Assembly: GCA_964016885.1 (NCBI GenBank)
Contig: OZ024743.1
Coordinates: 30,938,001 to 31,002,000, forward strand
Direction of reading: 5' to 3'
Origin: Eledone cirrhosa
Lineage: Eukaryota
Length of the DNA: 64,000 bases
Within the stretch, counting starts at the first letter, position 1. Each line of letters begins with the position of its first letter. Shown here in pieces: positions 10,641-24,660 of this stretch. Below the pieces are notes generated by a model, which did not search any database, had not been told where the DNA came from, and worked only from the letters and a program-made list of their open reading frames with translations. The translations under genes and the position numbers were made by a program.

Positions 10641-10854
10641 TAGAAAGTGAGGTTTTTTTTACAAAATTAAAAATAACCGAGGTGTCCTACACGAGTGAAA
10701 GTATAAAGAAAAAGAGATGAAATCGAAAATGCAACTGGAGTCTTATTTTTTTTTTAAATATATATATTTATTTGGTTCCTTTACCGGTTTCGCAGTTCTT
10801 CTGCTTTTCAAAAGGTGAGTTGAGATGGAGGGTCTGTGGTTTTTCTCACATCTG
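10641..10854 (-). mobile_element. Short element family A (~210 bp), inserted in (TA)n
   Basis: Near-identical or related copies at 21466, 24301, 53215 and 57591; TA arrays on both sides. Confidence 0.85.
10778..10815 (-). ncRNA. Minimal type I hammerhead, U3-A8 core variant (family A)
   Basis: cctt TTGAAAA gcag-aagaa-ctgc GAAAC CG GTA aagg: 4 bp stem I, 4 bp stem II, palindromic ACCGGT stem III, GUA triplet. Confidence 0.7.
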
Positions 10855-12659
10855 TATGTATATATATATATATATATATATACATACATATATATATATA
10901 TATATATATATATACATACATATATATATATATATATATATATACATATATATACATATATATATATACATATATATAAACATATATATATATATATATA
11001 TATAAACATATATATATATATATATATACATATATATATATATACATACATATATATATATATACATATATATATATATATATATATATATATATATATA
11101 AACATATATATATATATATATATACATATATATATATATACATACATATATATATATATACATATATATATATATATATATATATATATATATATATATA
11201 TATATATATATATACATATATATATATATATGTGTGTGTGTGTGTGTGTATGTGTGAGTGTGTGTATGTATGTATATATGTATATATATATGTATATATA
11301 TATATATATATATATTGGCGAATTGGTAGAGTCGTTAGAACGTCGTAGTTATGGGACAATTGTGTGTGTGCGTGTGTGTTTATGTGTGTGTCCATGCTCC
11401 CGTAACGTAGTTGTTGGATAAAAAACATACTTAAATAATGCTAGTCTGGAAAAGATAAGTACTGGTTTCGATATGATCGACTGAATCAAGAGGCTGCCCC
11501 AGCATGACCGAAGAATATTTATTAAAATAACTAGAGACAAGAAAGTATACATATACTGAGTCAGATATCGCGACCCAAAAATAAACACGTATTCTTGAGC
11601 GTGTATACAAACACGTACATTTCTGAATATGTATTGCACTATGTATATATCTCTCTGCGCGCGCGCGTGTGTGTGTGTGTGTGTGTGTGTGTGTGTGTGT
11701 GTGTGTGTGTGTGTGTGTGTGTGTGTGTGTCGTGTTTTGTGTGTTTATATCGTCAATTTGCAAATCCCTCGGATCAACAACAAAACATATATAAGTAGAG
11801 AGCCATTAAATCATTTCTGATATTTTTTCCTGGAGTTACTGAATTGTACAGTGTTTGTTTACTACCGTGTACATAGTGGTATATATAAACGTTTTAAATG
11901 TGGGAGCGCATATACATCCGTGAATGTATACAGTCTGGCCCCGTGTCACTAACTTCGCATTCATGTTTGTTTTATTTACACGCACGTGTAAGGAAATCGT
12001 ATTTTTCACACACCCTTTCTTTGTATGCTTCTCTCTCTCTCTCTCTCTCTCTCTCTCTCTCTCTCTCTCTCTCTCTCTCTCTCTCTCTATATATATATAT
12101 ATATATATATATATATATATATATATATATATATCTGTCTCTCTCTCTCTCTCTTTCTCTCTCTCTGTCTTACTCTCACATATGCACACACGTTTTAATT
12201 TCTCACACTACCTATATTTATCTTTCTCACATGTCTATCTCCCTCTGACTATGTGTATGTCAGGACCAGCTGACTGCAAATGTTGTTTCGTTAAAGCAAC
12301 AGAAGAAGAAACGGGCGAGGTAGAGATAGAGAGAAATATAGATGTGTGTGTGTGTTTAGTAAACAATTCGTCCGGAATTTTCCCTACCTTCTACAATATA
12401 TTATGGGTCACTCTATACACGTTTCTCTGAAATATCTTACAAAATATACTTCTTTCAAATTCTGTCTCATCACCATCAGCATTACAACATCTATCTAAAT
12501 ATATCCGTATTCTTCGCTTCGTAGCTGCTATAATCTCTTCAATTATATTTATCTTCATTCTTACTCTCCTTTTTCTGTTCTGCCATCTATCTATAATATA
12601 CCGTACCGATTTTCAATACGACGCTCACCAACAAAATCTTTATATTTTTTTATCGCCAT

Positions 12660-12865
12660 TATACTCGTCATTATCACCAGCATCATCATCGTCATCATCA
12701 ACAACATCATCATCAAAATCATCATCATCTTCATCAACATCGTCATCATTATCATCGTCAATATCGTCATCATCATAATCATCAATATCGTCATCATCAT
12801 CACCATCGTAAATATCGTCATCATCATCATCATCATCATCATCATCATCATCATCACCGCCGTCA
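12660..12865. repeat. (CAT)n trinucleotide microsatellite, imperfect
   Basis: Direct reading. Confidence 0.95.
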
Positions 12866-14435
12866 TGTTGTTTGTGGTTGTCATTCTTTTCTCTTTAGAC
12901 GATTCCGCTATATTTGTATTCTTTCATAACTGTTTTCTTCTGTTCTTCTTCCCTTTCGCTATCTCATTCTTTCTCTCTCTCTACTCCATCTCACTTTCTT
13001 TCTGTCTACGTTCCTCTCACTAGCCCCTCCATTTATCTTCCTATTTTCTTTCTCTGTCTCTGTATTATAATAAAGCGAGAAACAAACTGAAAATCCAAAT
13101 AAAATAAAATAGCATAACATATTATCTCTCCTGCTACTCCTATTACTTCTTTCTCTTCACCTTCACGTCCTTATCTTCTTCCTTTTCCTCTCCTCCTTCT
13201 TCTCCTCCTCATCTTCCTCCAACACTGTATGTATGGCTTGTTCAAGGTGGGCACTGACCACATTACTTCTATCATGGAAAAACTGCCGGTCTGCACACTT
13301 CGAAGAATTTTTCTACACAAGTACCGGAATTACCACTTCTTGAAACTCTCTTCACAACAACTTGAACACGGACATTACAGAGGAATATATGTAAAACCAA
13401 ACACTACCGCTTTATAAAGATTTATCTAAGTACAAAACAAGATTATATATACATACATACGCCTATATATATATATATATATATATATATATATATATAT
13501 ATATATATATATATATATATATATATGTGTGTATGTATATATCTATATATAATAGGTATTACATACAAGTGTATTGAATTATATCCACATACAAATTTCG
13601 CAATTATTTTTCGCAACACGGATATATCAGTCGTATTCCACAATGAGCATTGATTGCAATGAGAATTTTCAAAGAAAAATATAAATTCATGATATTATAA
13701 GAAAAGTATTTTTCTATTATTAAAAAATTAAACGAAAAGAAAGCAATGAAACAGAAAATAATTCGGTATTGTAATTCCTTTAAACCCTGTTGCTAGCAAA
13801 AACAAATGACAATTACTCCCATTATTTAACATTTATCACTGACAGACTAATACTTAAGGAGAGTTTATATATATATATATTTATAAGTGTTTGTGTCGAA
13901 CACATAATCATAGTAACAGTTTTCATATTCAGCCGGTTTCAAATGTACCTTTAGTTTCCGCTACCAGTTCTCTCACTCTAACTGCTTTTTCACTGTCATA
14001 TATATATATATATATAGATATATATCACCTCATAACCAACCGACGTCTAACACACCCTTACCTTAATATATATATATATATATAAAGTACTGACATGTAT
14101 ATATATATTGTATTATGTAATATTGTATGCCTAACAAACCACATTCTAGAAATTTAAATTATACAAAAACAAACGTGAGAGTGGGGCGAATGTGCCGAGA
14201 GATAGGAAGACTGGGATGAATAATTTCAAGTAGTACATGAGGCAACAAACCTCGTAACATAAATAAGTTCAAAGGAAATAAAGTTTTATAAGAATCTGTT
14301 GACAGACAACAACTGAATGACATCTCACCTGATTCTACCCAAATCACTCTATTATTTCACTACTCCACTTCTACACTCGTTCTTTTCGAAAATTGATCAC
14401 ACCTTTTGTCTCTCTCTCTTCCCAAAACAAAAATA

Positions 14436-23780: not shown

Positions 23781-24222
23781 TAAGTATGTACACGTACATA
23801 CATATATGTATACAGACGTACGGTAGTATGTATATATATATATACATACATGCACACATATATATATGTACGTATGGATTCACCGAACATTTATTATAAT
23901 CCTCGGTGTGTTTGTAAACAAACATCCTGTATTAAGCCGTAGTGTCCAGCAACCATCGTTGCTCGTTTGTTCAACACTGACAAAGGAACGCTGTACTAGT
24001 TTCAAGCTTATACGGGATGTTTGTTTACAAACACACCGAGCATTATAATAAATGTTCGGTGAATCCATACGTACATATATATATATATATGTGTGCATGT
24101 ATGTATATATATATATATACATACTACTGTACGTCTGTATACATATATGTATGTACGTGTACATACTTATATTTAAGTAACAGCCGTACTAAGAGTGGGA
24201 AATGAAATTTCGTTTCATTTGT
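23781..24222. mobile_element. Family D fold-back
   Basis: Left arm 23781-24010 stops inside HHR stem II (gtactagtttcaagctt); right arm 24013-24222 is the inverted copy running to the element 3' end (gccgtactaagagtgggaaatgaaatttcg). Confidence 0.8.
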
Positions 24223-24300
24223 TCCCTTTATATATATATATATATATATATATATATATATATATATATATATATATATATATATATATATATATATATA

Positions 24301-24660
24301 TTAGAAAGTGAGGTTTTTTTTACAAAATGAAAAATAACCGAGGTGTCCTACACGAGTGGAAGTATAAAGAAAAAGGGATGAAATCGAAAATGCAACTGAA
24401 GTCTTATTTTTTTTAAAAATATATATATTTATTTGGTTCCTTTACCGGTTTCGCAGTTCTTCTGCTTTTCAAAAGGTGAGTTGAGATGGAGGGTCTGTGC
24501 TTTTTCTCACATCTGTGAGAAAAACCACAGACCCTCCATCTCAACTCACCTTTTGAAAAGCAGAAGAGCTGCGAAACCGGTAAAGGAACCAAATAAATAT
24601 ATATATTTTTTTTTTAAATAAGACTTCAGTTGCATTTTCGATTTCATCCCTTTTTCTTTA
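24301..24660. mobile_element. Family A near-perfect head-to-head palindrome with two U3-A8 HHRs
   Basis: Centre ~24512; HHRs at 24439-24476 (-) and 24549-24586 (+); TA tracts on both sides. Confidence 0.9.

What the first reader, a model, noticed from the sequence alone, without database searches (positions are those of the whole stretch)
10778..24586. U3-A8 core-variant hammerhead fixed in a multi-copy family
Seen: family A has TTGAAAA exactly where CTGANGA should be, between a stem I (cctt/aagg) and stem II (gcag/ctgc), followed by GAAAC-CG-GTA. It occurs in four copies (10778, 21594, 24439, 24549), and an unrelated element at 1304 shows the same TTGAAAA..GAAACCGGTC layout. Established: positions 3 and 8 form a tertiary Watson-Crick pair in the active HHR, and a compensatory U3-A8 swap can retain activity. 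Inference: this is a natural variant that CUGANGA-based searches would miss.
Basis: partly seen in the sequence, partly recalled or inferred. Interest (0 to 1): 0.75.

Follow-up and report, generated by a model that had tools for sequence, protein, structure and literature searches.

The report
Known hammerhead variant in Penelope retrotransposon
The four motifs are copies of the end piece of a very abundant Penelope-type jumping gene and match an already published variant (U3-A8) of a small RNA predicted to cut itself, so the finding is mostly ordinary, though the ends of its genomic copies hint that the cut likely happens only rarely.

Summary
Observation confirmed: four minimal type I hammerhead motifs with UUGAAAA (U3-A8) at the stated places. 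They are ends (pseudo-LTRs) of a Neptune-type Penelope-like retrotransposon: 11,539 exact 30-mers genome-wide and a near full-length pLTR-RT-GIY-YIG-pLTR copy. The 1304 element is not unrelated; its protein is 50% identical. Positions 3 and 8 covary: genome-wide C3-G8 62,073, U3-A8 28,600, mismatched 1,893 and 1,869, and a homologous tandem-repeat pair differs by the double swap. U3-A8 is already published, in nature generally (PMC3088659) and in Penelope elements (PMC4209133, about 1,300 hits). The scan noted this variant before on other DNA, including this genome. Extras: 28 of 60 fragments start 65-72 nt before the cut, none at it. A targeted search found 9 of 53 junctions exactly at the cut (null 2.6). 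U3 can also pair with the cut-site A17, a predicted trap. Cleavage itself is untested. New member of a known kind; low interest.

The parts
10778..10815 (-). Family A minimal hammerhead motif (U3-A8); predicted cut between 10782 and 10781
10640..10854 (-). Family A 215-nt pLTR-end copy (unit positions 1-215) inserted in (TA)n
21595..21630 (-). Family A hammerhead motif, older copy, 3-bp stem I
21465..21666 (-). Family A pLTR-end copy (positions 5-215), 86-88% identical, in (TA)n
24439..24476 (-). Family A hammerhead motif, long arm of a back-to-back insertion
24301..24515 (-). Long arm (positions 1-215, distal 3' end with the 62-nt tail)
24549..24586 (+). Family A hammerhead motif, short arm; predicted cut after 24582
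24514..24662 (+). Short inverted arm (positions 5-153, proximal 3' end, no tail)
53210..53523 (.). Older two-armed family A copy (73-77%), hammerhead centre deleted
57590..57748 (.). Two-armed family A copy that starts 3' of the hammerhead (no motif)
1301..1348 (+). Family B hammerhead motif (U3-A8, GUC cut site, stem II gatgg/ccatc; core at 1306)
882..1455 (+). Inverted pLTR arm of a family B element
1..881 (-). 5' part of the family B RT-endonuclease ORF, which continues left of the window (L065)

Best explanation
The four motifs are minimal type I hammerhead sequences with a U3-A8 core pair in the pseudo-LTR of a Neptune-type Penelope-like retrotransposon, and they likely cut their own RNA only weakly and as dimers. 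Shown: the full element is pLTR - one ORF (RT, CxxxxCxxC linker, C-terminal GIY-YIG) - pLTR, about 5 kb; most copies are 150-215-nt end fragments in (TA)n repeats with two fixed 3' ends (unit positions 153 and 215) and often back-to-back. Inferred: (1) transcription likely starts in the upstream pLTR at unit positions 1-8; (2) the element's enzyme nicks (TA)n and starts reverse transcription at the two fixed points, and copying the first pLTR to the RNA's 5' end would give the many short copies; (3) two motifs pair through the ACCGGU palindrome to form stem III and cut after GUA; (4) cutting is likely rare before copying, perhaps damped by a U3-A17 pair that competes with U3-A8.
For: Anatomy: all core positions present, G10.1-C11.1 pair, palindromic stem III. 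Monomeric stem III costs 5.4 kcal/mol, while the intermolecular ACCGGU duplex gives -8.3 and the cofold MFE of two family A copies pairs through it. Element: L321 has motifs 4,979 bp apart around a once-frameshifted ORF; RVT_1 and GIY-YIG Pfam hits on family A ORF pieces (the RVT_1 hits are below the curated cut-off). Covariation: Watson-Crick 3:8 classes 90,673 against 3,762 mismatched matches, with reversed controls 5,810 and 1,956. The 316-bp U3-A8 tandem unit and a 310-bp C3-G8 unit are 206/323 identical with the motif in register. In 90 loci of related RTs from other assemblies, 27 of 30 descriptor hits have a Watson-Crick 3:8 pair (19 C-G, 6 U-A, 1 G-C, 1 A-U, some duplicated); the 5 control hits are all non-WC. 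Ends: 33 of 60 fragments end at 215 and 17 at 153; 28 of 60 start at 1-8. 9 of 53 junction loci start exactly at the cut (null mean 2.6, P=0.0008). Literature: PMC4209133 (dimers, low activity), PMC3088659 (U3-A8 active in vitro), PMC11167929 (two internal RT starts give the tail; uncleaved RNA is the main substrate; protein-assisted cleavage), PMC2377424 (internal promoter, abstract).
Against: No cleavage or expression data for this motif. Rfam gives no hammerhead hit, though it also misses a canonical C3-G8 motif in the window. Folding z-scores are only -0.5 to -1.7, and the monomer MFE pairs U3 with A17. The family B motif prefers a non-hammerhead fold alone and in cofold. The excess of starts at the cut is modest: some position reaches 9 in 5% of null runs, the -2..+1 window gives P=0.048, and 15 loci start at -16..-13. 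None of 60 fragments starts at the cut (part of that set was selected to hold the whole motif). 3' ends at the cut are rare (3 loci in the first 100 of 288 matches, hand count). Family counts are pseudo-replicated. Neptune family F shows no family-consistent motif within 3.5 kb of its endonuclease. Family B shows no sharp 5' hot spot in a selected sample. I found no initiator or downstream promoter element by eye at positions 1-8.
Confidence: 0.8

Rival explanations
1. The motif is a vestigial hammerhead: inherited from an active U3-A8 ancestor but no longer cleaving in family A (trapped by U3-A17), and carried passively with the pLTR.
For: P(U3-A17)=0.65 in the monomer ensemble, analogous to the C3-G17 trap (PMC3884650 passages). 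Only about 1% of copies start at the cut (estimate). Ribozyme mutants did not affect insertion by a Poseidon element in vitro (PMC11167929). Family F lacks a detectable motif.
Against: The core, stem II base pair and palindrome are kept across families A, B, C and D, while stems and loops have turned over and the A and B proteins are 50% identical. There is a small excess of starts at the cut.
Confidence: 0.15
2. The sequence is kept as a protein-binding or RT-stalling structure of the pLTR, or an ENE-like stabiliser, and only resembles a hammerhead.
For: 5' junctions also cluster at the 3' strand of stem II. The only Rfam hit over the motif is MALAT1 at E=1.7, 16.8 bits against a gathering score of 70.
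Against: 3:8 covariation is a hammerhead tertiary pair and is seen across families and organisms. The MALAT1 score is at chance level.
Confidence: 0.04
3. Family A is a non-autonomous retrozyme (tandem, non-coding, circular RNA) rather than the end of an autonomous Penelope-like element.
For: Most copies are short and non-coding; true tandem hammerhead repeats are common in this genome.
Against: The motif sits 1.2-1.6 kb downstream of the same GIY-YIG endonuclease in L002, L012/L056, L016/L061, L160, L321, L322, L325, L328 and L329, and at both ends of L321. I saw no head-to-tail array of the 215-nt unit.
Confidence: 0.02

Closest known systems
U3-A8 minimal hammerheads of Schistosoma mansoni Cercyon Penelope-like elements (Cervera & De la Pena 2014, PMC4209133; parts 1-2 of 4 of the text read)
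   Same: Type I minimal motif in pLTRs, U3-A8 instead of C3-G8, missed by the standard descriptor, 4-5 bp stem I, palindromic 15.2-16.2, mostly solo copies, opposite-strand pairs 100-700 bp apart, predicted dimer
   Different: Here a Neptune-type element in another animal; stem II only 4 bp with no bulged base after A9; a 4-nt palindromic insert in stem III; about 28,600 U3-A8 pattern matches against about 1,300; A17 can pair with U3
Natural U3-A8 core variants (Perreault et al. 2011, PMC3088659; passages read)
   Same: Same compensatory swap, reported in several natural examples and stated to be active in vitro
   Different: Scaffold here is a minimal, dimer-type retroelement motif
Poseidon element PAc of Anolis (Frangieh et al. 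2024, PMC11167929; passages and part 2 of the main text read)
   Same: pLTR hammerhead, AT-rich targets, two internal RT starts that define a tail
   Different: PAc has C3-G8, its ORF starts inside the ribozyme, and the generic tail is 30-40 bp; here the ORF starts after the pLTR and the tail is 62 nt
Neptune/Nematis clades of Penelope-like elements (Craig et al. 2021, PMC8557442; passages read)
   Same: C-terminal GIY-YIG, CX2-5CxxC linker, microsatellite bias, tandem and inverted insertions, hammerhead near the 3' end
   Different: No named reference sequence was on hand, so Neptune versus Nematis was not separated
Small dimeric hammerhead variants of Penelope-like elements (Lunse, Weinberg, Breaker 2017; not held, seen only as a citation in PMC6765202)
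   Same: Short palindromic stem III, dimer cleavage (per the review passage)
   Different: Could not check whether it lists U3-A8 or this family

Membership tests
Minimal type I hammerhead of Penelope-like elements | Core U4 G5 A6 N7 A9 / G12 A13 A14 A15.1 / U16.1 H17 | tested here: met
   near-invariant in 63 copies
Minimal type I hammerhead of Penelope-like elements | Watson-Crick pair between positions 3 and 8 | tested here: met
   U3-A8; covariation
Minimal type I hammerhead of Penelope-like elements | Stems I and II with G10.1-C11.1 | tested here: met
   (MFE forms both stems, stem I extended by U3-A17)
Minimal type I hammerhead of Penelope-like elements | Palindromic, unstable stem III that allows a dimer | tested here: met
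   ACCGGT; energies
Minimal type I hammerhead of Penelope-like elements | Bulged base between 9 and 10.1 (usual in the published consensus, not in its descriptor core) | tested here: not met
   G10.1 follows A9 directly in families A and B
Minimal type I hammerhead of Penelope-like elements | Location in the pLTRs of a Penelope-like element | tested here: met
   L321 and L062
Hammerhead ribozyme (Rfam models) | Score above a hammerhead covariance model threshold | tested here: inconclusive
   no hit, but a canonical C3-G8 motif is missed too
Hammerhead ribozyme | Site-specific self-cleavage after H17 | not testable with these tools
   only indirect junction data
Neptune-type Penelope-like element | Single ORF with RT and C-terminal GIY-YIG between direct pLTRs | tested here: met
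Neptune-type Penelope-like element | CX2-5CxxC linker before the endonuclease; DKG motif | tested here: met
   C-x4-C-x2-C and EADKG in the L321 and L062 ORFs; definition from PMC8557442
Neptune-type Penelope-like element | 5'-truncated, inverted copies with an optional tail; microsatellite targets | tested here: met
Neptune-type Penelope-like element | Phylogenetic placement with named Neptune references | not tested
   trees hold only unnamed relatives
Naiad/Chlamys elements | N-terminal endonuclease, no canonical hammerhead | tested here: not met
   endonuclease is C-terminal
Non-LTR retrozyme | Non-coding head-to-tail tandem units, one hammerhead each | tested here: not met
   family A has a coding full-length form; family E (L176) does meet it

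The most novel reading that the evidence does not exclude
The genomic copies are a record of the element's RNA ends: the hot spot at unit positions 1-8 marks the transcription start, and the small class starting exactly at the hammerhead cut marks self-cleaved templates. That would give an in vivo estimate (about 1 in 100) for a U3-A8 ribozyme tuned down by a U3-A17 trap, in a Neptune clade that fixed the swap long ago while a retrozyme lineage in the same genome gained it independently.
Probability: 0.3. Interest if true: 0.45.

Novelty: new member of a known kind. Interest (0 to 1): 0.22.

Why it matters
The variant itself is published, so the finding adds a family and a count: about 30% of palindrome-type hammerhead pattern matches in this genome carry U3-A8 and are invisible to CUGANGA searches. 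Its use is as a test system: the role of hammerheads in Penelope-like elements is still open (PMC8557442, PMC11167929), and a family with over 11,000 near-identical copies and fixed ends lets 5'-end and junction mapping ask how often the RNA is cut before it is copied.

Tried and rejected
Rfam scans: only microsatellite and hairpin miRNA noise (one search used two indel-bearing loci and is uninformative) and a chance MALAT1 hit. The repeat finder was swamped by (TA)n. Same scaffold with C3-G8: 0 matches. RNA evidence: no RNA holder listed. Contigs of four runs laid on L056 skipped the low-complexity stretch at the cut, so they say nothing on it. 3' ends at the cut: rare. One-clade test of six U3-A8-clade rows was rejected (p-AU 0.003) only because proteins of other organisms nest among them; it does not test the origin of U3-A8. 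The first tree left the relevant fork open. The '-837' cluster of starts is a BLAST break, ignored. The family B end analysis was swamped by TA hits and its sample was selected. A splice-acceptor reading of the hot spot (CAG/ATG at positions 1-6) was considered; copies there join TA repeats or inverted arms, not an upstream exon, so it was not pursued. Lunse et al. 2017 is not held. Supplements of PMC4209133 and PMC3088659, which may list more U3-A8 families, were not opened. Literature searches: 'hammerhead'+'U3-A8' 1 paper; 'C3U'+'G8A' 1, 3 papers; octopus+hammerhead nothing relevant; five-term search on starts and truncation 1 paper. The library lacks most subscription journals.

Full report
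Observation. Each reads stem I, TTGAAAA, stem II gcag/ctgc, GAAA-CCGG-TA, stem I. The last two are arms of one back-to-back insertion. The second element has its core at 1306. The window is microsatellite-rich eukaryotic DNA from a 3.0-Gb genome. The window also holds canonical C3-G8 motifs (36415, 45277, 20788, 33474/33501, 54543).

What family A is. The motif lies in a 215-nt unit flanked by (TA)n. The exact 30-mer occurs 11,539 times (control 0). Ten of 30 best loci share further upstream sequence, which leads to RT and GIY-YIG coding pieces. L321 is near full length: motif, ORF with one frameshift (938-aa main frame), motif, with a period of 4,979 bp and the ORF starting just after the first pLTR. 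The protein has a C-x4-C-x2-C linker before a C-terminal GIY-YIG, which PMC8557442 gives as the mark of Neptune and Nematis (passages). The 1304 element (family B) is the inverted pLTR arm of a similar element running left of the window; L062 has an intact 1,138-aa frame between 539-bp direct repeats. The A and B proteins are 50% identical over 974 columns, so the two are related and not independent evidence.

Covariation. One pattern with four 3:8 combinations gave U3-A8 28,600 (reversed control 1,858), C3-G8 62,073 (3,952), C3-A8 1,893 (827) and U3-G8 1,869 (1,129). The mismatched lists are mostly chance or single mutants of the big families (by eye, first 100 each). In 800 kb sampled evenly, a pairing-aware scan gave 20 C-G, 3 U-A, 1 U-G and 0 in the control (11 of the 20 are one array). 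These counts are pseudo-replicated, so family-level evidence matters more. U3-A8 occurs in Neptune-type families A, B and D, and in family C, which is linked to B by 73% DNA identity around the motif. A more distant family G of the same type has C3-G8. In a quick tree A, B, D and F fall in one group with seven foreign proteins (SH-aLRT 99) and G lies outside; no family-consistent motif was found for F. Separately, a 316-bp tandem repeat with U3-A8 is 206/323 identical to a 310-bp tandem repeat with C3-G8, the motif in register, which suggests a second, independent swap. In 90 loci of related RTs from public assemblies, 30 descriptor hits gave 19 C-G, 6 U-A, 1 G-C, 1 A-U and 3 non-pairing, some duplicated; the 5 control hits were all non-pairing. 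The closest of these with a motif (L339, L340, L343, L418) have C3-G8. The exact family A scaffold with C3-G8 has 0 matches.

Mechanism. Closing stem III in a monomer costs 5.4 kcal/mol; two ACCGGU palindromes pair at -8.3, and the cofold of two family A motifs pairs through them. This fits the dimer model for metazoan minimal hammerheads, which cleaved weakly as dimers and not as monomers (PMC4209133). With U3 and A17, stem I can extend by a U3-A17 pair (probability 0.65), the analogue of the proposed C3-G17 trap (PMC3884650 passages); this is a prediction. Of 60 fragments reaching 3' of the cut, 33 end at position 215 and 17 at 153, matching the two internal RT starts that define the tail in a Poseidon element (PMC11167929). 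28 of 60 start at positions 1-8, 65-72 nt before the cut, and none at the cut (half of the wide loci were selected to hold the motif's 5' part). I infer that 1-8 is the RNA's 5' end, since Penelope has an internal promoter (PMC2377424, abstract and one section), and that the short copies are cDNAs of the first pLTR of an uncut transcript. This is untested.

Trace of cleavage. Following a lead from earlier scan notes, I searched for copies starting within -16..+3 of the cut: 779 matches. Of the first 100 listed I examined 96; 4 visibly indel-shifted intact copies were not fetched. After dropping indel and internal-deletion copies and merging paired arms, 9 of 53 loci start exactly at the cut against a null mean of 2.6 (P=0.0008). 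But the -2..+1 window gives P=0.048, some position reaches 9 in 5% of null runs, and 15 loci start at -16..-13 (a less filtered pass gave 11 of 61). RT stalling at stem I could give the same peak. Scaled up this is roughly 70-170 copies, about 1% of the family. 3' ends at the cut are rare. This is weak, suggestive evidence only.

Known or new. Natural U3-A8 covariation was reported in 2011 as seen in several examples and already shown active in vitro (PMC3088659 passages). In 2014 it was reported for Schistosoma Cercyon elements, with about 1,300 hits from a dedicated descriptor (PMC4209133). Rfam detects neither this motif nor a canonical neighbour. Earlier scan notes describe the same variant in this and other genomes; they are unchecked AI notes and not support. 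I found no paper on this family or on a start-site hot spot, in a library that lacks most subscription journals and Lunse et al. 2017.

Verdict. A real, well-formed minimal hammerhead motif of a published variant type in a Neptune-type Penelope-like element: new member of a known kind, interest 0.22. Self-cleavage remains predicted.

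Noticed in passing
window 38297-39834 (+): Broken RT and endonuclease frames of another Penelope-like element (identified from recalled motifs)
   Followed up: no
window 62363-63609 (+): Open frames resembling a Helitron Rep/helicase (recalled resemblance)
   Followed up: no
window 31457-31801 and 56273-57074: Fragments resembling non-LTR retrotransposon RT/C-terminal regions (recalled)
   Followed up: no
window 32164(-) and 32563(+); L163:122: A repeat with CTGAGAA (C3-A8 mismatch), GAAA and TC in hammerhead-like order, as an inverted pair; may be a mismatched-core family or chance
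   Followed up: no
window 33474(-)/33501(+); L186, L188, L192; family D: Abundant motifs with a U.U mismatch at 10.1/11.1 and a 3-bp stem II, in both C3-G8 and U3-A8 families and in family G
   Followed up: no
L176:2977-4557; L189, L190, L192, L195, L115: Retrozyme-like tandem arrays of 310-470-bp units with one hammerhead each; L176 has U3-A8 and is 64% identical to the C3-G8 array of L189
   Followed up: partly
L316-L319, L333, L116: Neptune-type family F, sister to U3-A8 family D, shows no family-consistent hammerhead within 3.5 kb downstream of its endonuclease
   Followed up: partly
L351:116; L395:1968: Well-formed motifs with G3-C8 and A3-U8 cores next to Penelope-like RTs in public assemblies
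   Followed up: no
L056:7200-7847: A ~300-bp block is duplicated just upstream of the family A pLTR end; possible promoter module
   Followed up: no
L416-L425; P0017, P0021, P0053, P0061: Penelope-like RT-endonuclease genes in bacterial MAGs and symbiont assemblies, likely host contamination
   Followed up: no
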